NCBI RefSeq assembly: GCF_004010195.1
Contig: NC_057752.1
Span: 15,769,348 to 15,833,347, forward strand
Direction of reading: 5' to 3'
Source: Chiloscyllium plagiosum
Lineage: Eukaryota
DNA: 64,000 nt
Shown here: piece by piece, positions 19,540-62,543 of the stretch
Numbering within the stretch: the stretch's first letter is position 1
Layout: every line of letters starts with the position of its first letter
Program-made: the position numbers and the translations under genes
The notes under the pieces: model-generated
Seen by the model: only the letters and a program-made list of their open reading frames with translations
The model's database searches: none
What the model was told of the DNA's origin: nothing

Positions 19540-20720
19540 TGTGTTTTCCAGGCGTGTTTGCGCCTATGAGGGACTTCATCAAAACTCTTCTGAAACCCAA
19601 GTTTGCTCTGTCAATCTAGTCCTCATTAATTTGGTTAGTAATATCGTCAAACAATCTTCATGCATTCGTCAAACACTATTTTCCCCTCACAATCGAACAG
19701 TGACGACGTCATGCCAGAAGGCTGTTAAGACACAAAAACAAACAGAAATTGCTGGAGAAACTCAGCAAGTCTGGCAGGATCTGTCGAGAGAAAGCAGAGT
19801 CAGCGTTTTGGGTCCAGTGACCCTCTCTTCATGATTGTTAACGGTTACGTTGGGTGAAACATATTTTCTCATTGGCCTCTGTGGGTCTGGGATGTTGCCC
19901 TTTTAAATGACGCTGAAACAGATATCGGGTTCCCATAGACCAAAGCAGCTAATTAAAGATCTTGTGATTACTCCCAGCCAAGAAAGTTCAACGGCAGTGC
20001 CAAAGGTGTTGATATGGTTTCAACCTCCTTTCCTGTTCAGAATCAAAGTTAATAATTTACAAGATCGACAGCAGATGCCGGTAGAGAGGGGAGATCGAGC
20101 TTCAGTGTTTTAATGTTAAGGACTGGTGAAAATATCGGTCTCACCACCCCAACTCCCTCGTCTTCTGCCTGGTCCAGGGAGATTTGGCAGAGTTCCAGAG
20201 GACAACTGTCGCAGGTAAGATTGGGGGAAATCTTTCTCCCTTTTACTCAGGGTCGGGGACCCTATATGATTTGAGATTTTAAAACTCAAAATGTGATATC
20301 ATTAACCCTTACTCCTTCATTAGTCTGTGGGTTTTTGCAATCTCATAAAAGACTCTGCTCAGCCTCCCTCCGCAGCTCATTCACAATTTACCTACGTTTT
20401 TGAAAATAAATATTAAAGTCGTCAGCTATGGGCGTGACCTCTCCGTACAGTGTGTACACTCATAGCTGCACACTATCCACTGACCTTTGTCAATTACTGA
20501 CGAAACTAAAGACCATTTCAGCCGGAGTAAACTTTGCTGACTGAGAGACCTGGTTAATAGGACCAGGCATTTCAAAGAACTCAATTTGGGGGGGATTAAA
20601 AGGCAATACCCGCCTAGATTTCCCAGGTGAGTCTGGGTCTTGACAGCATATTGAACTCCGCATATTAACCGAAATACACACTGGAGGGGCGGAGAAACGC
20701 CACCAACAGACAAAACTTTC
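19540..20720 (+). promoter_or_regulatory. Locally CpG-enriched region, probable promoter and first exon of the espin-WH2 gene, with a splice donor at 20215
   Basis: More CpG than the flanks, gacgtca half-CRE near 19706, GC boxes near 20430 and 20686, strong donor cgcag|GTAAGA. Confidence 0.45.
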
Positions 20721-22880: not shown

Positions 22881-23668
22881 GGATATGTTACACTTTTGCT
22901 TTCATTAGTGAGTATTCATATGGAATTTACTATCAGAAAATGTCATTATAATGCTCATTTACAATTATCTTTTCAGAGCATCTTTTTCCAGTCTTTGTGA
23001 TGTGACAATATTGTTGAAATAGAGCTGCTCCACAATCTCAATTTTCCACTGTTATGGCACGATAACCAAATTTTATTGTCAAACTTTAACTTCAGACCCC
23101 AGTAGTGTGCTAATTGCATTTTGTGTTCCAAAAATTGCATGTTTCTCAATTTCTGGATTATTGATTGCACATTCATTATTATTTAATATATTTTTATATA
23201 ACACTGTTAGTGGTAGACAGTAAGACTGGAGCAGCAGTTGCCTGAATCAGTTTCTGGTGAGAAGTGATAAGAACCACATGCATTACTAAAGGATCTTAAT
23301 TTGGTGGGTTAAAGTCAATGATGAGACTCTATATTGTTGGATGAAAGATATGAACCAAGTCGGACGAGTCCATGATAGAGTACACATGGGTTGGAGTTTA
23401 GATGCAGCCTTGATGCCTTTTTTTATCACTTCTTACTTGGTGCTTTTGCTTGTATTTACTTTAGATATGTGACTGAGCACATGAAATATTCCTTGAATAT
23501 CTGTTGCAAACACATTGTGTGTTCTGATATCTTGTTTCAGAGGAAGCTACAGTTTCCTGCTTTTTAGAACAGTTGTATCTATACTGGAGAATTGATCACT
23601 GTCCGGAAAAGTTTGGAATAATTGCTACACTACCCTCAGTGCATGAGACATTTCCCACAAACAGAAAC

Positions 23669-23683
23669 ATGGATAAAGAAATG
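23669..23683 (+). CDS. Espin-related WH2 protein, first coding segment (MDKEM) within exon 23541-23683
   Basis: Acceptor tgtttcag| at 23540, aacATGG Kozak-like start, donor |GTAAGA at 23684, phase 0 compatible with the next exon. The whole exon is also open in this frame, so the true start may lie upstream. Confidence 0.55.
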
Positions 23684-24164
23684 GTAAGATTGTTTTAAAA
23701 CTAGCTACTGATGTCAATAAATGTTGCTGTTAGTCTGTTATTGAATACCCAGCTGCTTTGCTATTGATGATTGTGGTGGCTGGAGGAGTCTGCTGTCGTT
23801 ACTCAGATGGGTATGATATAACTGCAATGCTGTGAAAATGTGGTTTACTCTTAATGTCACTGTTCAAAGGGAATTGTATAAACCATATCTTCTGCACCAG
23901 TTTAAGGTGATGACCCACCAACACCTGCTAAAGGGGTGCAAGAAATAATGATCCTTGAATTCCAGTGGTAGGAATAAGGTACCCTTCAGATCTGCCACCT
24001 AATCACAGACTGTCCAACGAGCTGCCAAAGGATCATGGCCTTGTGGTATTAGCTTAGACTGTTCCTACCTTAGGCCCAGGTGTTGTGTTGGAGGCCCAGA
24101 TTTGAACCTCCTGACCGATTGTGCAATATGAAGTTAGTAAAACGATGACCATAAAACTTTTTGT

Positions 24165-24960
24165 TTTTGTTCGTTCGTGGGATGTTCATTGCTGGCTGGC
24201 TAGCATTTTTGTTGCCTGACCTGGTTGCCCTGAGAAGGTGATGGTGAGCTGTTTCTTGAACCATTGCAGTCCACATGCTGTGGTTTGACCTACAATGCCA
24301 TTAGGGAGGGAATTCTAGGATTTTGACCCAGTGACAGTGAAGGAATAGAGATCTATTTCCAAGTCATAATAGTGAGTGGCTTAGAGAAGCTGCAGGTGGT
24401 GGTGTTCCTTGTTTTTACTGCCTTTGTCTTTCTAGAGGGAAGTGGACAAGAGTTTGGAAGTTGGTGTCTAAGAATCTTTGGTGAATTTCTGCAGTGTGTC
24501 TTGTAGATAGTACATACTGCTGCTACTGAGTGTCAGTGATGGAAAGAGTTGGATGTTGGTGGAAGTGGTGCCAATCAAGTGGATTGCTTTGTTCTGGATG
24601 GAGTCGAGCTTCTTGAAAGTTGTTAAAGCTGCCCCCATCCAGGGCAAGTGGAGAGTATTCCATCACACTTCTGACTTGTGCTTTGGGGATTCAGGAGATT
24701 TTACTCGCTGCATTATTCCTAGCCTTTGACCTGTTCTTGTAGCTGCTGCATTTATGTGGTGAGTCCAGTGAGTTTCTAATCAATGGTAATCCCAAGTATG
24801 TTGATAGTCAGAGATTCAGAAATAGTATCACTTTTGAATGTCAATGTTAAATTCTTTCTTGTTGATGATGGAGATTGCTTGCATTTGTGGTGCAAATTTT
24901 ACTTGCCACTTGTCAACTGGATATTGTGTAGATCTTGTTTCATTTGAACATAGACGCATT
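24165..24960 (-). mobile_element. 3' fragment of the same LINE family as 27950-32780
   Basis: Reverse complement matches 31981-32780 (ttgacaccatccag, gttcaagaa, cagcatttattgcc-like tail). Confidence 0.8.
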
Positions 24961-25465
24961 TCAATCAATGGGGAGCCATGACCAATGCTGATCCAGCAGA
25001 ACCAACATCTATTGTCTTTATTTGCTCTGGCCTACATGCGGATCCAGATCAGAGTAACGTGGGTGACTTTTGGTGGCAGTTGCCCTCCGGACCATAAACG
25101 ATGGCTTTGCCTACATTGCACACAACTCATGAATGAATTTTCAAAAAAATTACGCCTGCACAAAGATATGAGACCATAGTAAGTTTAACCCTTCAAATGA
25201 CTTCTCACTGGCACCTGGACTTCAGATGCACATTAGTGGATCAGTCTTTTGTCTGAACAGCAAAAAGAGGTATTTGTGTGAACGCTGACATGTTTTACCT
25301 ACTTTTTTGCAATGTTGGACTGCTCTATCGTTAGAATGAAATAACTTGATGTAGTTTAACTGGAAGGTCACCATACCTCAGGTGAGGAGATAAGTTGAGA
25401 AAGAGAATCCTTAATAATAACTTCAGTTTGTGCAGAAATTGAACCCACACTGTTGGCATCAGTCT

Positions 25466-26236
25466 TGCTGCAACACGGGTGAAGCCCTCTGTTAATTAAA
25501 CCAAACACCCAGAAGAATCCCCCTCTCCTTGGAATCAGTTAAAATGGGAGTGATTGAGAACTCTCAAATTGTACTATTTAAAGAAAATAACTTCAATTTA
25601 TTTTTTAACTGAGTGAACATTAAACAACAATTCTCAATTCTAAGCCCCCTTTCTCTTAACTGTTTATTATCTGCCTCCAGCTCTAACAATATGCTGTTCC
25701 AATAAGACACTTATTAAAATTACATCAACTTAATTTCAAAACCACACAGCTATTCTCATCTTCTGTGATGCCACTCTTCCGAATGCTGACTATCCTGGGT
25801 CGTCATCTTTCTTTTTACTTTGAGAATGTTTCATATGAAAAAGTACCTTTTTGACAGAGAGTGTTTCCTAATGTCTCAGAGAGCAAGATGTTAGCTCTCC
25901 ATGTGTTTCTGTCTCGATGGTGGTTGCTCTCTGACCAATTTTCAAAAGGCCTGCATTTTATGCCTCCCTAACATTGGATCATTTCATTGTTGGCAAAATA
26001 ATAAATTCAAACTTGATTGGATTTTAGTATTCTGGGGAATAACTTGAACTGGTTAAATTCAAATTCTCAAAACAGCAACCAAAAACTCTGGTATCCCTTT
26101 CACAGATAAATGTTACATGTTATCAATTTTTCAGGACTCGCTGGGACTGCCAACTAGTCATATCACTTGTAATCTCTCCATTCAGAGCAGCATTTCTTCT
26201 CCTAAATGTACAGTACACACTTTCAACCTCATAACA
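25466..26236 (-). mobile_element. Solo LTR inserted in an older tRNA-derived SINE
   Basis: TG...TAACA termini, imperfect 4-bp TSD (gtct/ctct), colinear with 31268-31976. Confidence 0.75.
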
Positions 26237-26591
26237 CTCTGCATTGTAAATCAGCTGTCCAGTAAACTCAGCTAACTGATTCCCCCCCCCCCCCCCCCAT
26301 GTTTTCACTTTTAATGAATACATTATCAGGACATTCGGGGTAATGCTGTTCAGCATTTCTATACACCGCTCATGTGGGTGTGTTTTGAAAATCAGAGAAA
26401 GTGTTTGTGTTAAATCCAATTTAAAGTGATCCCAATGTCCTGTGACGTGGAGAATTTGAGTTGAAGTGACTTTTCTCTAATTGGCCCAACATTTCAGTTG
26501 AAATGTTATAGAGGTCTTGAATTGAATATTTGGTCATATGCTGTCTTCAATTGACTTTGCTATTAATGACTTTTTTTTTTAAACATTTCAG

Positions 26592-26712
26592 GACTCTCCA
26601 TCATCTTACAGCCACAGCATAGTGCCAACATCCCTTCCACAACCCAACTATCCAATGTCTCCTCCACCAGCATGTAATGGGACAACATCTCCCATTCGGT
26701 TTCCAAGTGAAG
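26592..26712 (+). CDS. Espin-related WH2 protein, proline-rich exon (DSPSSYSHSIVPTSLPQPNYPMSPPPACNGTTSPIRFPSE-G)
   Basis: Poly-T tract plus tttcag| acceptor, donor gaag|GTCAGT, open in phase 0 to 1, splices in frame to the WH2 exon. Confidence 0.7.
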
Positions 26713-27504
26713 GTCAGTTCAGTGGTGGAATTTTCTTTTTGAAAGTGGACACGAGAGTATGTCCTGATCTGATGTATGTTTCAGATACAAAACATTAAAA
26801 TCCAACCTCACCTATTTGGTATTTTGTACCCAGGCTGCTGTGTGGAATGAATTTAGACTATCTCAACTCTGCAAATTCTGACCAATTTCTACAATACATA
26901 TCTATCCATTCTTCACTATTAAATAATAACCTCCGTCATGATGACAGCAGAATACTTGGAGTAGCAAAATTTTAAATTTCAGATCATACTTTGTATCAAT
27001 TGAAACTTTTATTCCAAAACTGTTTCTTTTATCATCTTTATCTTAACAATTTCTGGATTACGGAGTAGGCTATTGTGTGTAGAAGGCTATGCAATTGGCT
27101 GAAATGAATTGAGGTATGTGGGCATTTGTATGAAACAACACCAGCATTAGACCTATTGGACTAAATTACATGAAATTCTTATGTACCAACCAAAGAAGAA
27201 ATATAACTTTTACACCTCCACTCGACAGACTAAGGTTGTTAGTGTTTTATGGATGGTAATTAGCCTTTTTCTCTACTGACAGTAAATGCTCAAATCAGGT
27301 TGAGGAGACACTAATTTTAGTCATCTTCTGCTGTGCAGTCCATATTTACATATTTAGCACAGGTTTATTGTTGTTGTCCATTGTCTGATGGACATTCACC
27401 AGACAAATGTATCCTTGGTTAGCATATACGTGACTGTATTGTACAATCTCTGGTTAGCATATACTGTATCTGGCTGTAACAAAAATTACTTACTCACTTT
27501 GCAG

Positions 27505-27641
27505 GGCAAATGTATTTTAACATGACCTCCCCTTCTTCAAGCAACGAAGAGCTGTTGTGCGAGCTGAAGGCTGGAAAAGTCCTGAGGCCGATACAACAGT
27601 CTAAAGGCCTAACAACAATATTTTCTGGCAGTGGAAGCAAT
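27505..27641 (+). CDS. Espin-related WH2 exon ([45 protein letters not shown])
   Basis: tttgcag| acceptor and |GTAAGT donor; strongly resembles the espin segment [39 protein letters not shown] (recalled). Confidence 0.88.
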
Positions 27642-28222
27642 GTAAGTGGGGAAGAACAACAAACATATGTTTTATCGATAGTGACTTTATCAGTTAATTG
27701 CTCTGCTTTGTAAAGTTTGACATGCCAAATATAAAAACAACTTTGCATAATTTTTGACAACCAAAGGATATTCTATTCTAATTGTAAAACATAATGAAAC
27801 ATTAAGTGATTCAAAAGAACATTGAAAATAAAATATATTAGGAAAAGGTGTTCAAAAGCATGGTTGGAAAATAGATTTTAAGAAATATTTTTGAAGGAGG
27901 AGAAAGGTATAGGAAGGGAATTTTAGAGTGTAGGACCCAAGTAGGTGTCAGACAGCTGATAATATTCAGGGGACCTGGCTTCGAATCCCACCATGACAGA
28001 GTGGAATTTGAATTCAATTTTTAAAAAAATGGTCTAAAATTAAGAATCTATTGATTTCCGTGAAATCATTGTCGATTGTTGGAGAAAAACCCATCTGGTT
28101 CACTAAAGAAGCTGGGAAGAAAATCTGCCATCTTTACCTGGTCTGGTCCACATGTGACTCCAGATCCACAGCAATGTGGTTGACTCACAATTGCCTTCTG
28201 AAATGGCCTAACAAGCCATTCA

Positions 28223-28925
28223 ATATAGAACATTACAGCGCAGTACAGGCCCTTTGGTTCCACAGGTCTGCACAACATCGAGGGCCAATCTGAAGCCTAT
28301 CTATCCTACATTATTCCATTTTGCTCCATATGTTTATCCAATGACCGTTAAAATGTTCTTAAAGTTGGCGAGTCTACTACAGTTGCAGGCAGCCCTTACT
28401 ACTGAGTAAAAAAAATGACCTCCTTACTTCTGTTCTGTATCTATCACTCATCAGTTTAAAACTAGTCTCCTCATGCTAGCCATCACTATCTGAGGAAAAA
28501 GGCTCACTCTCCACCTTATCTAACCCTCTGATTATCTTAGTGAGACATATAAGTCACCTCTCAATCTTCTTCTCTCTAACGAAAACAGCATCAAGTCCTT
28601 CAGCCTTTCTTCATAAGACCTTCCCTCCATACCAGGCAACATCCTAGTAAATCTCCTTTGAACCCTTTCCAAAGCTTCCACGTCCTTCCTATAATGCAGT
28701 GACCAGAACTGAACGCAGTACTCCAAGTGTTGCCGCACCAGAGTTTTGTACAGCTGCAGCATGACCTCATAGCTCCAAAACTCAATCCCTCGACCAATAA
28801 AAGCTAAGGCACTGTATGCTAATTTAACAACCCTATCGACCTGTGTGGCAACTTTCAGGAATCTATGTACCTGGACACCGAGATCTCTCTGCTCATCTAC
28901 ACTACCAAGATTCTTACCATTAGCT
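28223..28925 (-). mobile_element. CR1 LINE 3' fragment
   Basis: LVRQHLEYCVQFWS and RRFTRMLPG on the - strand; short cattca duplication at both ends. Confidence 0.9.
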
Positions 28926-28981
28926 CATTCAGTTGTACCAATCGCTAAAAAGTCTCAAAAAATGAAACAGGATAGATCACT

Positions 28982-29260
28982 GGCGGTATAGTGGCACAGT
29001 GGTTAGCGCTGCTGCCTCAGCGCCAGAGACCTGGGTTCAATTCCCGCCTCAGGCAACTCTGTGTGGAGTTTGCACATTCTCCCCGTGTCTGCATGGGTTT
29101 CCTCCGGGTGCTCCGGTTCCCTCCCACAATCCAAAAAAAATGTGCAAGTTAGGTGAATTAGCCATGCTAAATTGCCGGTAGCGTCTGGGTGGGTTGCACT
29201 TCGGAGGGTCGGTGTGGACTTGTTGGGCCGAAGAGCCTGTTACCACACTAAGTAATCTAA
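28982..29260 (+). mobile_element. HE1-type V-SINE
   Basis: A and B boxes, V-domain, taatctaatc tail, atcac duplicated at the flanks. Confidence 0.88.
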
Positions 29261-31267
29261 TCACCTGGCATCGACCTAGGCACTGGAAAAATCAATGGCA
29301 GATCAGCCCTGTTGACCCTGCAAAGTCCTCCTTACTAACATCTGGGGGCTAGTGCCAACATTGGGGGAGCTGTCTCTCAGACTAGTCAAGCAAAAATCTG
29401 ACATTGTCTGTAAGGTATGATTGTCCCAGACACCACCATCACCATCCCCATCCCTGGGTATGTCCTGCCCCACAGGCAGGACAAACCCAGCAGAGGTGGT
29501 GGTACAGTGAGATACAGTAGGGAGGGAGTTGCTGTGGGAGTCCTCAACATTTGACTCTAGACCCCGTGACATCTCATGGCTTCAGGTCACACGAAGTCAA
29601 GGAAGTCTCCTGATTACCACATACCGTCCTCCCTCAGTTGATGAATTAGTACTCCTCCAGGTTGAACAACACTTGGAAGAAGCACTGAGGATGGCAAGGA
29701 TACACATTGTACTCTGGATGGGGGATTTTAATGTCCCACTACCAAGAGCAGCACTACTGATTGAACTGATCGGGTGCTAAAGGACATAGCTGCTAGACTG
29801 GGTCTGTGGTAGGTGGTGAGGGAAAAAACATACTTGTCCTCATCCTCACCAATCTGCTGGCTGCAGATACATCTGTCCATGACAGTATTGGTAAGATGAC
29901 CACTGTGCAGTCCTTGTGGAGACAAAGTCCCGCCTTCACATTGAGAATACCCATAATGTGTGGCGCTATCATTGTTAAATGGAACAGACTTCGGTCAGAT
30001 CTAGCAACTCTGGTCTGGGCATCCATGAGGTGCTGTGGGCCATCAAAAGCAGCAGAATTGTACTCCAACACAATCTGTAACCTCATGGCCCAGCATAACC
30101 CCCACTCAAGCACTACCGTCAAGCCAGGGATCAATGGAGAGTGTGGGAGGGCATGCTAGGAGCAGCACCAGGCATACCTGAAGATGAGGTGTCAACCTGG
30201 TGAAGCTACCAAACAGGACTACTTTCATGCCAAATGGTAGAAGTAGCAAGTGATAGACAGAACTAAGCGATTCCACAACCAACAGATCAGTTCAAAGCTC
30301 TGCAGTCTTTTCACATCCAGTTGTGAATGGTGGTGGAGAATTAAACAATGTACTGAAGGAGGAGGCTCCATAAATATCCCCATCCTCAATGATGGAGGAG
30401 CCCAGCATATCAGGGCAAAAGACAAGGCTGAAACGTTTGAAGCAATCTTCATCCGGATGTGTGGAGTGGACAATCCATCTCACCTCTTCCAGTGGTCCCC
30501 AGCATCACAGATACCAGTTTTCAGCAAATTCTGTTCATTCCACATGATATTACTAAACAGTTGGAGACATTGGATACTGCAAAGGCTATAGATCCTGACA
30601 ATATTCCAGCAATAGTACTGAAGACTTGTGCCAAGCTGATCCAGTACAGCTACAACATTGGCATCTACCCAACAATGTGGAAAGTTGCCCCGTACATAAA
30701 AAGCAAGGAAAAACTAACCTGGCCAATTACCGCTCCATCACCAGTAAACTGATGGAAGGGGTCATCAACAATGCTATCAAGCAGCACCTGCTCAGCAATA
30801 ACCTGCTCACTGATGCCCAGTTTCGGTTTTGCCAGAGTCACTCAGCTCCTGACCTCATATAGCCTTTGTTCAAACATGGACAAAAGAGCTGAATTCCAGA
30901 GGAGAGGTGAGAGTGGCAGCCCTTGACATCAAGGCTTCATTTGACTGAGTGTGACATCAAGGAGCCCTAGTAAAACTGGAATCAATGAGTATCGGGGGCA
31001 AACTCTCCACTGATTGGAGTCATACCTGATGCAGAGGAAGATGAGTTGTGGTTGTTGGAAGTCAGTCATCTCAGCTCCAGGACATCTCTGCAGGAGTCTC
31101 TCTGGGTAGTGTTCTAGGCCCAACCATCTTCAGCTGCTTCATCAATGACCTTCCCTCTGTCATAAGGTCAAAAGTGAGGATGCTCACTGTGCAATCATCA
31201 AGGTCTAGCACCATTTGCCACTTGTCAGATTATGAAGCAGTCCGTGTTTAAATGCAACAAGATCTGG

Positions 31268-31976
31268 TGTTACAACATGGTGGAGAACCCTTCTGCTAAT
31301 TAAACCAAACTCGCAGAAAAGCTCACCTCGCCCATCATCTGTCAAACCAAGTGTTGGAGAATTCCCAAATTCCACTATTTAAAGAAAATAATATAAATTT
31401 ACTCTTTAACTCTAAAAGTAAACATTTAAACAATAATTATTTACAAGTTTAAGCCTCCTTTCTCAAATGTTTTTCATCTGTATCTAACTCGATAACAATA
31501 TACTGTTCCAATCAAAACCCATATTAAAATTACATCAACTTGATTTCAAAACCGCACAGTGGCTGTCATCTCCTTTTGGCTGAAGATTTCCCTGGGTCAT
31601 CTTCTGGCTTTTACTGCAAAGATGTTTCCTATGCAAAAGGTACCTTTTGATAGAGAGAGAGTGTTTTGAATGGCAGTTACACCCTGTCTAACATTCAAAC
31701 TGTTTGCTTCTTTATACCCCGAACATTGGATCTTCTCATTGGTTCAAGGTTGGCAAAAATCAATTATCCTGGGGCATAATATAAAATGATTGGCTAGATT
31801 CAAATTGTTGTCAATACAACTCAGGTATCTAGTTCACAGCCAAATGTTACATAATTTCAATTTTCCTGTGCACTCTGAGACTGCTAGCTAGTCATATGGC
31901 AGGTGTTTGCAAGCTCTGTGCAAAGCAACATTAACTCTCTCTTAAAGGTGCAGTACACACCTTCAACTTCATAACA
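31268..31976 (-). mobile_element. Solo LTR (Gypsy/ERV-like)
   Basis: TGTTA...TAACA termini and perfect 4-bp TSD ctgg; removing it restores host LINE gatctggacaacatcc; TATA-like ggggtataa on the - strand near 31715. Confidence 0.85.
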
Positions 31977-33139
31977 CTGGACAACATCCAGGTTTGGGCT
32001 GACAAATGGCAAGTAACATTCACGCCATACAAATGCTATGGCATGACCATCACAAATAAGAGGCAACCTAACCATTTCCCTTTGGCATTCAATGGTATTA
32101 CTATCAGTCTGGTCCCCCACTATCAACATTCTGGGGGTTATCATTGACCAGAAACTCAGCTGGACTCACCACATAAATACAATGGCCACACAAGAGTAGG
32201 TCAGAAACTGAGAATACTGTGGCGTGTAACTCACCTCCTGATATCCATATTCTGCCCACCATCCACAAGGCACAGAATACTTCCCACTTGCCTGGATGGG
32301 GACAGTTCCAACAACACTCAAGAAGCTTGACACCATCCAGGTAAAGCAGCCTACTTGATTGGCACCACATCCACAAGCATCCCCTCCCTCCATCACCAAT
32401 GCTCAGTAGCAGCATTGTACCAGTTACAAGATGCACTGCAGAAATTCACCAAAGATCCTCATACAGCACCTTCTAAGCCCATGACCATTTCCGTCTAGAA
32501 GGACAAGGGCAGCAGGTACATGGAAACATCACCACCTTCAACTTCCCCCTACAAGTCACTCACCACCCTGACTTGGAAATATATCTCTGTTCCTTCACTG
32601 TCACTGGATCAAAATCCTGGCATTCCCTCTCTAATGGGATTATGAGTCAACCCACAGTAGGTGGACCGCAACAGTTCAAGAAGGCAGCTCACCCCCACCT
32701 TCTCAAGGGGGGGCTAGGGACCGGTAATAAGTGCTGGCCCAGCTAGTGATGTCCACGCCCAAAAAAGGAATGAAAAAAGTATCAAAACACAAGAAGCCAT
32801 AATAGGGAGGTGCAGAGATCTTGAATGTTGCAGAGTGTAGGAGGTTAGGGATGAGGTGAAGCAAGACCATAGAAGGATTTGAAAACTTGAGGTGTTGCCA
32901 AATTAATGATTAGTGTAAGTTAGCAAGCACAGGAGTGATGATGGAACAGGACTTGGTGGGGCTTTAAGGATCCAAACAAGTAAGATTTGGATGACCTGAC
33001 TTTTCTGTAGTGTTGAAGATGGGAGGGAGCAAAGGTGCATTTGATAGACAACTCCAGAACTAACACAATGAAGATTTCAGTAGAGAATGGGCTGTGGCGA
33101 TGACAGAAAAGGCTGATTTATTCTGGAAAAGAAAGTTAA

Positions 33140-33345
33140 AGGGTAAAGTCACCACAGTCCCAGAAGACCATAGGCCTATTATTTCATAAGAGAGACAGAT
33201 AACTGGTGGTATGTTTAACCTGAGTGTAACCACACCTCAGGCAAAGTTGAGAAGGTGCGATCTTCATGGTAACCTCGCCAATGTGGGAATTGAAACTGTG
33301 TTGTTGGTGTCACTTTGCATCACAAACCCGCTGTCCAGTCAATTA
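33140..33345 (-). mobile_element. Old tRNA-derived SINE (same family as the host of the 25466 LTR)
   Basis: Similar to 25345-25465 plus 26237-26280; B-box-like ttcaattcc on the - strand. Confidence 0.55.
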
Positions 33346-34139
33346 AGAAATTAGCTGCTTGGTGGTGGAGAAGATATTGGGTTACAAACTTGTTTTTGGG
33401 GTCTCCAAGGTTTGCAACATTGCAACAGTTTGTTTGATCACAGTTGCCTTGAAGAGATTGCTCTTCAAGTTGAGGTTAAACAAATTCTGGTGGAGATTTC
33501 AGACAATGGCTTTGGTCTTTGCAATTATCCTTGAAGATTTCGAACTCTTTCTGTCTGATGAGCAACATAGTAAATCACTGTGGAGGAATCAAGAGGTGCT
33601 GCTGGTTAAGTGGAAATGAATTTTGAATGTATATGTGGAATTGTACAGTCTTGTGCACTATAGTAGAGTCTCTACCACTTGGACAGAAGGATTAGGTCAG
33701 ATCCTACATCATAACATGTCAAAACAGGTTGATTAAAGATGTATCTGTGCAGTTTGCTGTTGTGGTTTTGATAACATTGCCATGAGGCAGCTTATGTGTT
33801 CAAAATGAGAATGCTGAGAAATTATATTTGGGAAGATACAGAACATTGCTGTGGGAATGAGAAGAGAGACCATTAAAGTTGATTCCTTGACTATGACTGG
33901 ACGGAACCAGGCAAAAACAGTCCTATCCATTGGACAACAGAGAAATTTTCAGAAGACTAGTGTGGTCATAATTTCAAAAGTGCAGCAGAAGGTTAGCTTA
34001 CTAGTATTACTGTATTAAAAGTGGGATAGTGGACTTGTATGATGGGCAATGTTTTTATGAGAATATAGAAGGTCACAACAGAGATGCAGATAAATGTTAT
34101 TATTTTGACTGATACTTGAACAACTGCAATTGTTTTCAG

Positions 34140-34274
34140 AACCAATGGTTAAATACGGGACGTGGAAAAGTGCCACTACGTGGTCGAGTGCAATCGTTGC
34201 ATGGGAAGACTTCGAACCCAACAGCAGCTGGTGTCCATGGCAGATCAAGCTCTGATCGCAAATCTTCAATATAA
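34140..34274 (+). CDS. Espin-related WH2 protein, putative terminal exon (NQWLNTGRGKVPLRGRVQSLHGKTSNPTAAGVHGRSSSDRKSSI*)
   Basis: tgttttcag| acceptor, open in the phase 0 required by the WH2 exon, CpG-retaining segment in AT-rich DNA, ATTAAA at 34335. Confidence 0.6.
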   Translation, partial: NQWLNTGRGKVPLRGRVQSLHGKTSNPTAAGVHGRSSSDRKSSI

Positions 34275-35364
34275 ACAAAACAAAATGGGGAATAGGGCAG
34301 TTAAAGTGAGCTAATAGTAGAGATTTCATTTCTTATTAAATTCATTTTAAATTATATTGCTTAATTGTCAAGTTTTTCACTTTCCTATGATTTCAGATTT
34401 TTGTCCTGGTTGCATTTGCTGAAATTGACTGGGATTCTCCTAGAATAGATGAACATTATCATCACAATATGTGACTGTTATCCTTGGTTGTAGTACCATC
34501 TATTGAGATAGTTCGTTTCTCAGCATCAGTGGTTCAGTTTCAAATTTATTGAGACAGATGATACTCATGCTATTTGCAAGTTTCAATTCTACTCCATTGT
34601 TACTGAGCAGAATGGGTTAGATTGTTCTTGATTAATGTCAAACTTTCAGTCTGCAGAGAAATAACAAGTACATTGGACAGTGATATTTTTTAACCAAATG
34701 GATGAACTTATAGCTTAAATTGAAACAAATGTGCACCAATAGCATTACATATAGAAATGATTACCAGAGCCAAGACACTTCCAAGGAGATTTGGAAGGAC
34801 AAGAAGAAAGCAAAAGAAGATGGATAGTTTTGTTGGTCAATGATGAAATCTATACACCAATCAATAATTCTTGGTTTGAAGTATCAAAATCAGAATCAGT
34901 TTGAGTTGAGATAAAATCATACGAGGTTCAGCAAAAATGGGGAAGGAAGTGAAAGGGGGATCTGAGTGGACAGTATTGATTTAAGGAGAACATTGAAATG
35001 TTAGAGAAAAAGGACTAAAAAAGATGAAGTTTTTCACCTAGGACTGCATACATTTTGCTGTGTATTGGGTGCGTGGAATTCTATCTGGATTCTGTCCGTT
35101 TGAATACATAATTTGTCTTTTGCCATTATTTAAACAAGACCATTATCCAGTTTCATTAATAGAGTTTTACTAGAGTGAATAGCAAATGAGTGACAGAGCC
35201 CAGCAATGATTTTGTTCTCCATTGCTTGGGTTTTTCACTGATTTGAGCAGAAGCTCCCCAGTAGAAATTTTGTAAACAGCCAGATGGTGGGAAATTCTCT
35301 GATATAACTTTGTGGATGTCCCAGGTTTTATAACAATGGTTTTGGTGTGGCTGGTTAGGTTACT

Positions 35365-51699: not shown

Positions 51700-52270
51700 C
51701 GTGATGTACCTGTCTTGCACATGTTTGTGGAGAAAAGGGTAGAGGGAGTTTTACTGTCATTTAAAAATTATAGGGAGCGAGTGACAGTGCTGAGGGAGCC
51801 TCACTTCCAATTTAAAAGAATAGAGGCAACTTTACTTCGATTCTAACCTGTGTTGTACCTGTCCAGTGGGAGTGTTTAATGGGAACAGTGTTGAGGACAG
51901 TTTACTTGCAATTTAGAAGAGTGATTAGAGCTTTACTTTGTAGCGGACATCGTGCTGTCTCTCTCCCTGGGAGTGTTTGATAGGGGGACAGTGTAGAGGG
52001 AGCTTTACTCTGTATCTAACCCCGTGCTGTCCCTGTCCCTGGGAATGTTTGATGGGGGGGACAGTGTAGAGGGAGCTTTACTCTGTATCTAACCCTGTGC
52101 TGTCCCTGTCCTGGGAGTGTTTGATGGGGACAGTGTAGAGTGATCTTTACTTTTAAAAGAGTAGAAGTTGCTTGCTCTGTTTCCAACTCTGTGCTATATC
52201 TGTTGTAGTTCTGTTCGTGGAGCTGGGGATTTGTGTTGCTATGTCTGTTCTGGGAGTGTTTGATGGGAAT
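51700..52270. repeat. ~70-bp minisatellite (gggacagtgtagagggagctttactctgtatctaaccccgtgctgtccctgtccctgggagtgtttgatg)
   Basis: About 3 good units at 51945-52150 with degenerate flanking units; related unit near 50315-50450. Confidence 0.85.
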
Positions 52271-52484
52271 CACTAGATAAAACAAGGAAGGATTAATTAT
52301 GCAGTAATTGATTGTTGAGTAAGAGATGTGATTGTGGCACGTTATTAGCAAGGAGTTTTCGTTATCTGTTCTCATTTTCCAGCACTAGGCATTGGCAATG
52401 GTCTAATCGTTCTCACATGACTTGGCTCCTGAGCGAATATGATGAAGCCTATTGTTCCTGAAACACAATCTGGTTTGTTTTCAG

Positions 52485-53010
52485 ATTTATCAACGCACTT
52501 GGCACCATATTTGGATTTATATCGGAAGAAGTTACCAGCAAAATAAGAATACTCATTGAGCATCAGCAGGGAGTGCATGGAAAGGAATACATCTCCATGA
52601 GGTCCATGATAAATTATGAATTAACGAATAATGTGGTTAACTTGCATGAACTTCCCAGAGACCGTCTGCAATCCGGCTGCCGCACTTTACTCCGTCTCCA
52701 TCGAGCACTGCGGTGGCTGCAGCTCTTCCTTGATAACATCAGGACCAGCTCTGAGAATGACTCGATGTCCATCGGTTGCGCTGAAGCCTATGAACAGTCC
52801 CTTGCTAAATATCACAGCTGGCTTGTACGAAAAGCTGCTGGGATTGCATTCCTTGCCCTTCCAGCACGGACAGAGTTCCTTCAGATACTGTGTCTGGAAG
52901 GCAGCAAGGAGACCAAAGACAAACTTTGGAGTGCTGTGAATTTGATTGAGAGAGTTTATAATGTTACACAAGGAATGTATGCACAGTATAATATGCTTGA
53001 ATTACCTTAG
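52485..53010 (+). CDS. GLTPD2: GLTPD2 exon 4 (main GLTP/CPTP fold, to the stop codon)
   Basis: ttttcag| acceptor; FINALGTIFGFISEEVTSKI, SGCRTLLRLHRALRWL, YHSWLVRKAA, MLELP*; four exons total 870 nt = 289 aa; adjacent to PSMB6. Confidence 0.93.
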
Positions 53011-62352: not shown

Positions 62353-62543
62353 ACTACATTTCCCGGCAAGCCGCACGGCGCTTGGCCCTCCGCGTTCCCG
62401 GCAAGCCGCACGGCGCTTGGCCCTCCGCATTCCCGGCAAGCCGTATGGTGCTTGGTCCTCCGCGTTCCCGGCAAGCCGCACGGCGCTTGGCCCTCCGCAT
62501 TCCCGGCAAGCCGTACGGTGCTTGGTCCTCCGCGTTCCCGGCA
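62353..62543 (+). repeat. 35-bp GC-rich tandem repeat (~5.2 units) in the PSMB6 promoter/5'UTR, each unit with a ZNF143(Staf)-like site
   Basis: Units tcccggcaagccgcacggcgcttggccctccgc(g/a)t start at 62361, 62396, 62431, 62466, 62501 and 62536 (partial); the first is preceded by ACTACAtt. Confidence 0.85.

What the first reader, a model, noticed from the sequence alone, without database searches (positions are those of the whole stretch)
23541..34340. Apparently stand-alone espin-derived WH2 micro-gene lacking both the ankyrin repeats and the actin-bundling module
Seen: four exons with canonical splice sites (23669-23683, 26592-26712, 27505-27641, 34140-34274) join in compatible phases (0, 1, 0). 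They give an intact 135-aa ORF of a Pro-rich segment, [38 protein letters not shown], and a basic 44-aa tail. Known: the middle block matches the WH2 exon of espin (ESPN), and the described espin isoforms end in a C-terminal actin-bundling module (IPEWKRQVMVRK...). I find no such exon before GLTPD2 starts about 1.8 kb after the stop. Inference: this is an extra espin paralog reduced to a G-actin/profilin-binding protein that could modulate or compete with bundling espins, e.g. in hair cells or electroreceptors. ESPN and CPTP both lie on human 1p36 while GLTPD2 is on 17p13, so it may be a whole-genome-duplication copy retained in sharks.
Basis: partly seen in the sequence, partly recalled or inferred. 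Interest (0 to 1): 0.85.

Follow-up and report, generated by a model that had tools for sequence, protein, structure and literature searches.

The report
Third espin gene, WH2 motif only
Sharks, rays, coelacanth, lungfish, salamanders and several ray-finned fishes carry an extra, spliced copy of the hair-cell gene espin that has lost its actin-bundling and ankyrin parts and kept the WH2 motif, so it likely binds single actin molecules instead of bundling filaments.

Summary
The four-exon, 135-aa model is correct and is identical to an automatic RefSeq model named 'espin-like'. Spliced contigs in three runs join a new 5' exon to exons 1-3; the exon 3-4 join was not seen directly. Full ESPN and ESPNL lie on other chromosomes, and no ankyrin or bundling-module sequence was found in 304 kb around the gene. 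The gene is not shark-specific: short proteins without a bundling module and with the same WH2 variant occur in 26 species, from elasmobranchs to lungfish, salamanders, gar and eels. They split from ESPN at 100/100, and a shark-only duplication is rejected (p=0.002). Both loci sit head to head with a HES gene, which fits genome duplication. The WH2 leucines are kept; the polyproline tracts are gone, so profilin binding is unsupported. Best reading: a disordered G-actin-binding monomer buffer (0.6, untested; tissue unknown).

The parts
19961..20214 (+).
   Evidence: Spliced to 23541 in contigs of 3 of 3 contig runs laid; donor CAG|GTAAG and upstream ATGs
23541..23683 (+). Exon with 128 nt of 5' UTR and the start codon at 23669 (A at -3, G at +4), coding MDKEM, phase 0; one out-of-frame upstream ATG overlaps the start
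   Evidence: start Met aligned in 11 of 12 rows of alignment A3
26592..26712 (+). Ser/Pro-rich exon, phases 0 and 1, at the position of espin's PR2 exon but without polyproline tracts; holds the family's short hydrophobic motif (HSIVP here, E[VI]LIIP in several bony vertebrates)
   Evidence: motif in 13 of 23 proteins and no profile match to ESPN's PR2 exon start in 23 of 23
27505..27641 (+). Espin WH2 exon, phases 1 and 0; WH2 core at 27543-27593 (residues 59-75), followed by the conserved GLTT[IV]FSG block
   Evidence: single predicted helix at residues 60-67
34140..34340 (+). Last exon: 44 codons, stop ending at 34274, ATTAAA at 34335-34340; likely the remnant of espin's linker/bundling-module exon ending before the module
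   Evidence: tail 35/44 identical to Heterodontus; join to exon 3 rests on the RefSeq models and on 180/183 unlaid bases at the contig ends, not on a directly seen joint
31560..31583 (+). Candidate alternative last exon (AG, then WLSSPFG-stop) inside a repeated element; would give an even shorter protein
   Evidence: Matches the tail of Hemiscyllium isoform X2, P0010; repeat interval; splicing not tested here
52462..53010 (+). Neighbour, not part of the gene: GLTP-domain exon (GLTPD2-like), used as a synteny marker
   Evidence: PF08718 E 2e-35; 44% paralog on C34

Best explanation
This is a transcribed third espin-family gene, older than the shark/bony-fish split and likely a genome-duplication copy, that has lost the ankyrin repeats, polyproline tracts and bundling module and is predicted to act as a small disordered protein whose single WH2 motif would bind one actin monomer and buffer the monomer pool. 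Shown: exon structure, splicing of the 5' exon and exons 1-3, absence of the other espin modules, separate ESPN and ESPNL loci, family range, conserved WH2 residues. Inferred: helix 60-67 would sit in the cleft between actin subdomains 1 and 3, and LR-x-[TVI] with the GLTTVFSG block would run along the monomer; with no filament-binding site and no profilin site in the shark form, it would neither bundle nor localise to microvilli and would slow spontaneous polymerisation in the cytosol. The gene looks like an espin-3-type transcription unit (short Met exon, PR2-position exon, WH2 exon, linker exon; phases 0, 1, 0) cut off before the module.
For: Model and phases match the own ESPN exons; mouse espin 3A starts at the equivalent short Met segment. 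11 of 17 residues equal the espin WH2 consensus printed in PMC2173610 (counted by eye). Its three leucines are L62 (23/23), L63 (L, I or V in 23/23) and L72 (23/23); E65, T82, F85 and G87 are also invariant in 23. Mutating the three WH2 core leucines removes WH2 function in espin (PMC9796729 passages; that these are the same three is my inference). The isolated rat espin WH2 peptide blocked pyrene-actin polymerisation and did not pellet with F-actin (PMC3953818 passages). Espin lacking the module was diffuse and did not lengthen microvilli. Among elasmobranchs the WH2 exon is as conserved as ESPN's (40/45 vs 41/45 to Heterodontus; 32/45 vs 30/45 to Rhinoraja). The model has one helix in an otherwise unstructured chain (pLDDT 56.7). 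Origin.
Against: No binding was measured for this protein. 0 of 12 family members match Pfam WH2 at E<=1 (shark ESPN itself reaches only E 0.002, below the cut-off). The family has fixed changes against ESPN (I to L at 66, K to R at 73) and varies at the PT position (P/H/R and T/V/I), which could change affinity. The motif diverges faster than ESPN's in bony vertebrates (23/40 vs 34/45 to bichir). The most conserved stretch extends beyond the known WH2 consensus, which a pure buffer does not need. Salamander and teleost members carry extra repeats that suggest more than buffering. No tissue or protein-level data. PER and CAMTA searches found no copy on C43, so the paralogon rests on HES and GLTP genes.
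Confidence: 0.6

Rival explanations
1. It is a targeted barbed-end regulator: the WH2 binds actin, but a second motif (the hydrophobic IIP-type motif, the basic shark tail, the salamander SIKQLQSLF repeats or the second partial WH2 of teleosts) docks it on filaments or a partner, so that it delivers monomers or opposes capping protein.
For: Espin's anti-capping effect needs the WH2 plus one F-actin site, not the bundling module itself (PMC9796729 passages). The IIP-type motif occurs in 13 of 23 proteins; [ST][IM]KQLQxxF repeats occur in 3 of 3 salamanders and resemble the short filament-binding motif of PMC13364712 (passages; mapping is my inference). Four teleost forms show a second LSS-x-[QE]LL segment upstream.
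Against: No second motif is shared by all members; sturgeon and paddlefish forms end 7 residues after the WH2 exon; the tail is basic (+5 to +7) only in 7 sharks and -1 to +3 in the other 16; no xAB-exon match in the region.
Confidence: 0.22
2. The conserved exon is kept for a non-actin partner of espin (binding FNMxSP or GLTTVFSG), and the protein is a decoy or adaptor that titrates that partner.
For: G80-G89 is as conserved as the WH2 helix in both ESPN (182 rows) and the short family (23 rows) and lies outside the published WH2 consensus. Pfam WH2 is not matched.
Against: The hydrophobic WH2 positions are invariant; FNM is lost in ray-finned fishes and salamanders; no such partner appeared in the passages read.
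Confidence: 0.12
3. It is a transcribed relic or a non-coding locus, and the ORF is not under selection.
For: Four upstream ATGs in the 382-nt leader, one overlapping the start; exons 2 and 4 diverge quickly outside sharks; no peptide evidence; dN/dS could not be computed (no ortholog DNA available).
Against: Open frames with the same motif in 26 species across jawed vertebrates; length changes among sharks keep the frame, start and stop; strong start context.
Confidence: 0.04
4. The model is a fragment: a misassembled piece of ESPN, or a longer gene whose ankyrin or bundling exons lie in gaps or further away.
For: The exon 3-4 join was not directly seen (one search covered only up to intron 3); some upstream stretches read N; the genome search with full ESPN used a stricter first look.
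Against: Complete ESPN on C34 and ESPNL on C13; only 2 bundling-module exons in the genome at E<1; exon 3 is only 73/137 identical in DNA to ESPN's; contigs are 685-855 nt; none of the 39 short-type protein records has the module motif.
Confidence: 0.02

Closest known systems
Espin (ESPN), especially the espin 3 isoforms
   Same: WH2 exon of the same length and phases; 11/17 of the published WH2 consensus; exon phase series 0, 1, 0 from a short Met segment; head-to-head HES neighbour.
   Different: A separate gene. No actin-bundling module, which all described espin isoforms share (PMC2173610, PMC3953818, PMC6493769 passages); no ankyrin repeats, xAB or polyproline tracts.
Espin-like (ESPNL)
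   Same: Espin paralog; the shark ESPNL locus keeps an exon in the WH2 position with the same 5' phase.
   Different: The opposite loss pattern: ESPNL keeps ankyrin repeats and the start of the bundling module and its WH2-position exon is degenerate; this gene keeps only the WH2 exon. The database name 'espin-like' for the short proteins does not mean ESPNL.
Engineered espin delta-C117 and jerker espin
   Same: WH2 present, bundling module absent or broken; delta-C117 is diffuse and does not lengthen microvilli.
   Different: Those are mutants that keep the proline-rich domains and xAB; jerker's nuclear bundles need the xAB, which this gene lacks. This is a natural gene kept by selection.
Beta-thymosins and other stand-alone WH2 monomer binders (recalled; search listing only)
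   Same: Small, disordered, one WH2-type motif, likely 1:1 G-actin binding.
   Different: No sequence match to any Pfam thymosin or WH2 model or to solved WH2 chains; derived from espin; carries 35-380 extra disordered residues. It may work like them and is not a member.

Membership tests
Espin family (descent) | Espin WH2 exon: sequence, length and intron phases | tested here: met
   60% identity, E 8e-9; 137 nt, phases 1 and 0 in both
Espin (ESPN) as a bundling protein | C-terminal actin-bundling module | tested here: not met
   Profile at most 0.5 bits in 304 kb against 95.7 and 74.4 for the controls; genome search finds only C34 and C13
Espin 1 / ESPNL | N-terminal ankyrin repeats | tested here: not met
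   No hit at E<1 from 10 full espins in window plus flanks; none in 150 of 456 upstream non-repeat ORFs scanned with Pfam; some stretches read N
Espin 1-3 | Polyproline (profilin-binding) tracts | tested here: not met
   Longest run 3 or less in 23/23 short proteins, 6-11 in 16/16 ESPNs; espin's profilin binding needs these peptides
Espin 1-2 | xAB extra F-actin site | tested here: not met
   The ESPN exon covering residues 493-548 hits C34 and weakly C13 but not the window or flanks
WH2 motif | Match to Pfam PF02205 | tested here: not met
   0 of 12 members at E<=1; weak test, shark ESPN scores 18.1 against a cut-off of 23.1
WH2 motif | Amphipathic helix with core leucines followed by an L-[KR]-x-[TVI] segment at espin spacing | tested here: met
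   L62, L72, R73 in 23/23; L/I/V at 63; helix 60-67 in a low-confidence model
WH2 motif | Binds monomeric actin | not testable with these tools
Whole-genome-duplication ohnolog of ESPN | Duplication older than the jawed-vertebrate crown | tested here: met
   19 short vs 16 ESPN rows split 100/100; chondrichthyan-only duplication rejected, p-AU 0.002 (45 columns, unrooted; 66/85 when cyclostome and ESPNL rows are added)
Whole-genome-duplication ohnolog of ESPN | Paralogous neighbours on both chromosomes | tested here: inconclusive
   HES gene head to head about 50 kb upstream at both loci and GLTP paralogs on C43 and C34; PER and CAMTA not found on C43; an old segmental duplication is not excluded
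One orthologous short-espin family | Same locus (HES - gene - GLTPD2 - proteasome subunit) in bony vertebrates | not testable with these tools
   Only protein records were available for other species; orthology rests on the tree and shared residues

The most novel reading that the evidence does not exclude
Jawed vertebrates began with three espin genes that divided the work: ESPN bundles, ESPNL is myosin-III cargo, and this third gene supplies or withholds actin monomers in the microvillar sensory cells of aquatic vertebrates (lateral line, electroreceptors). It was lost in amniotes and probably in the usual model fishes and frogs, which is why it was never described.
Probability: 0.2. Interest if true: 0.75.

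Novelty: new variant of a known kind. Interest (0 to 1): 0.55.

Why it matters
The papers read treat the bundling module as common to all espins and name ESPNL as the paralog. A gene kept since before the shark/bony-fish split with the WH2 exon alone shows that this exon has a selected function independent of bundling, which engineered deletions left open ('presumably required in other contexts', PMC2173610). It offers a natural minimal construct, 26 species of substitutions for mapping the motif, and a knock-out target in axolotl, newt, bichir, sturgeon or catshark. The limits: gene models already exist in databases under misleading automatic names, function and tissue are untested, and no member was found in mammals.

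Tried and rejected
Pfam, PDB sequence and Atlas searches gave nothing usable for the short proteins. Complex prediction with actin was not available, so there is no verdict. No run was on record as an RNA holder; the three contig runs are RNA by guess and count as transcripts because their contigs skip introns. The single-cell run (about 2% read) gave only a few reads on exon 3 and is not used. PER (PF12114) and CAMTA (PF03859) searches gave no C43 copy; no HES motif in 60 kb upstream of ESPNL. Homology of exon 2 to ESPN's PR2 exon: 0 of 23 above shuffles; of the tail to ESPN's linker: 8 of 21 with at most 5 of 100 shuffles as high, but not the own protein (41 of 100): suggestive only. Retrocopy rejected (introns in ESPN positions). 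Shark-specific duplication rejected. 5' extensions in P0001, P0008 and P0011 are not shared and are closed by an in-frame stop here. Expression: the catshark atlas supplement could not be read and may hold the tissue answer; the paddlefish supplement had no espin entry in its one readable file; a sturgeon table lists two ESPN-named and one ESPNL-named transcripts common to ampullary organs and neuromasts but they cannot be assigned without sequences. Loomis 2006 is not held. Earlier scan notes: nothing by sequence, four unrelated by words.
Full report
Observation. The protein is identical to P0009, an automatic RefSeq model named 'espin-like'. Exon 3 finds one other locus in the 3.6-Gb own genome at E<1, on contig C34 (60% identity, E 8e-9). 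There the same exon is followed after a short intron by the exon that starts the bundling module.

Transcription. Three contig runs (organisms A, B, C; RNA by the tool's guess) each hold one contig of 685, 855 or 825 nt that joins about 19961-20214 to 23541-23683, 26592-26712 and 27505-27641 (in the third run the exon 2 piece appears in the difference and joint tables, not in the piece list). The contigs continue for 30, 180 and 183 bases that lay outside the stretch examined. If co-linear from 34140, 180-183 bases end just before the ATTAAA at 34335; this fits but is not a seen joint. The leader is 382 nt with four upstream ATGs; the main ATG has the strongest context and an in-frame stop lies upstream.

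Not a fragment. A search with the bundling-module exon finds two loci at E<1: C34 and C13. A search with full shark ESPN lays out a whole ESPN on C34 (32.12-32.31 Mb) and an ankyrin-plus-module gene on C13, read as ESPNL; the only C43 match among 60 is exon 3 (run with a stricter first look). I fetched 160 kb upstream and 80 kb downstream of the window. Ten full espins hit only exon 3 at E<1 in these 304 kb. A module profile from 107 sequences scores the two controls 95.7 and 74.4 bits and nothing above 0.5 here. Some stretches read N.

Family range. Word-based and profile searches with naming gave short proteins of 106-499 aa without ankyrin or module motifs in 26 species: 11 elasmobranchs, coelacanth, lungfish, 3 salamanders, 2 bichirs, paddlefish, sturgeon, gar and 5 teleosts (two Anguilla, Conger, Aldrovandia, Arapaima). 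Database names range from 'espin-like' to 'uncharacterized', 'PERK2' and 'GPI-anchored protein 58'. Of 281 stored proteins, 43 carry the EL[KR] variant: 39 short-type records, 2 ESPN-type records with the module, and 2 cyclostome proteins. No frog, caecilian, amniote, chimaera or zebrafish-group member was listed. Absence is not shown: one search listed 120 of 418 hits, and the teleost members scored 59-63 bits, at the cut.

Age and origin. On the 45 WH2-exon columns, 19 short and 16 ESPN rows split at 100/100, and a tree that joins all 16 chondrichthyan rows is rejected (p-AU 0.002). That run left out four near-duplicate short rows, three cyclostome rows and ESPNL; with them support was 66/85 and 67% of bootstraps. 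The tested group was named after I had seen the first tree, and the tree is unrooted. Exon 3 has ESPN's length and phases, and the neighbouring ESPN introns are also phase 0, 1, 0, so this is a DNA-level duplicate. A HES gene (HLH domain, ending WRPWP) lies about 49 kb upstream of the 5' exon on the opposite strand. A HES gene lies in the same head-to-head position about 50 kb upstream of ESPN on C34. The GLTP-domain neighbour has a 44% paralog on C34, and proteasome-subunit exons follow it. That HES7, GLTPD2 and PSMB6 mark human 17p13 and HES2, ESPN and CPTP mark 1p36 is recalled, as are those gene names. PER and CAMTA searches added no C43 copy. I put whole-genome duplication at about 0.75 against an equally old segmental copy.

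What is conserved. In 23 short proteins L62, E65, L66, L72, R73, T82, F85 and G87 are invariant and position 63 is L, I or V. Residues 59-75 match 11 of 17 of the espin WH2 consensus printed in PMC2173610. Among elasmobranchs this exon is as conserved as ESPN's; against bony vertebrates it is less so. Outside it the family shares only a short hydrophobic motif in exon 2 (13 of 23) and an NG motif in the tail (9 of 23, against 131 of 138 ESPN linkers). Proline runs are 3 or shorter in 23 of 23, against 6-11 in 16 of 16 ESPNs. The tail is basic only in sharks. The structure model is low-confidence throughout (pLDDT 56.7, pTM 0.14) with one helix at 60-67. Pfam WH2 is matched by 0 of 12 members; shark ESPN is itself under the cut-off.

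Mechanism. From papers: the isolated rat espin WH2 peptide blocks actin polymerisation and does not bind filaments (PMC3953818, passages). Espin binds G-actin through the WH2 and profilin through its proline-rich peptides, and espin without the module is diffuse and does not lengthen microvilli (PMC2173610, passages and section 8). Anti-capping needs the WH2 plus one F-actin site (PMC9796729, passages). A protein with the WH2 alone is therefore predicted to bind one monomer and buffer the pool without bundling, profilin recruitment or microvillar targeting (0.6). Rivals: a docked barbed-end regulator (0.22), a decoy for a non-actin partner (0.12), a relic (0.04), a fragment (0.02).

Tissue. 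Unknown. All 26 species are aquatic anamniotes, but gar and the teleosts listed lack ampullary electroreceptors (recalled), so the gene is not tied to that organ. The catshark paper PMC11979771 has no 'espin' or 'espn' in its main text and its supplement could not be read. PMC5429088 had no entry in its one readable supplement. PMC7720607's table lists two ESPN-named transcripts and one ESPNL-named transcript as common to both lateral-line organs, without sequences to assign them.

Novelty. Eight full-text searches listed no paper on a short espin paralog; I saw only the top 10-20 rows of each, and subscription papers are mostly not held. Passages read name ESPNL as the paralog (PMC3953818, PMC4773517) and a single espin in zebrafish with the module in all described isoforms (PMC6493769). 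The scan's own notes had nothing on it. Verdict: a real, ancient, apparently undescribed espin subfamily with a new architecture made of a known motif; new variant of a known kind; interest 0.55.

Noticed in passing
window 31560-31583 (+): AG-preceded WLSSPFG-stop matching the tail of Hemiscyllium isoform X2; a likely alternative last exon recruited from a repeat.
   Followed up: partly
L022:1-1320 and L023:9539-10000 (-), C43 about 15.74 Mb: HES-family gene with an HLH exon and a WRPWP end, head to head with the short espin gene; HES7 by recall.
   Followed up: partly
L016:1500-1630 (-), C13: Shark ESPNL keeps a degenerate exon in the WH2 position (ELKSGKTLKST core) with the same 5' phase.
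   Followed up: partly
P0185 (Myxine, 274 aa) and P0169 (Lampetra, 747 aa): Cyclostome espin-like proteins share the ELK variant and lack ankyrin motifs; P0185 ends within the first part of the bundling module (34.8 bits) and P0169 has at most a trace (0.7 bits). They could be intermediate stages of the loss, but their place in the tree is unresolved.
   Followed up: partly
P0189, P0195, P0198 (salamanders): Expanded N-termini with repeated [ST][IM]KQLQxxF segments that resemble the short filament-binding motif of PMC13364712.
   Followed up: no
P0201, P0203, P0206, P0267 (teleosts): A second, partial copy of the WH2 helix upstream of the main one.
   Followed up: no
G000:C4:2.11-2.24 Mb (L038-L043): Cluster of at least four conventional actin genes whose coding sequence appears to lie in two exons (residues 1-41 and 42-375).
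   Followed up: no
L049:292-630 (-), about 50 kb past the window: Divergent homeodomain ORF (PF00046, E 7e-10) downstream of the proteasome-subunit gene.
   Followed up: no
window, about half of all bases: Decayed LINE-type reverse-transcriptase and endonuclease fragments and short repeats fill the introns and the upstream 19 kb; tandem arrays at 51928-52151 and 62360-62543.
   Followed up: no
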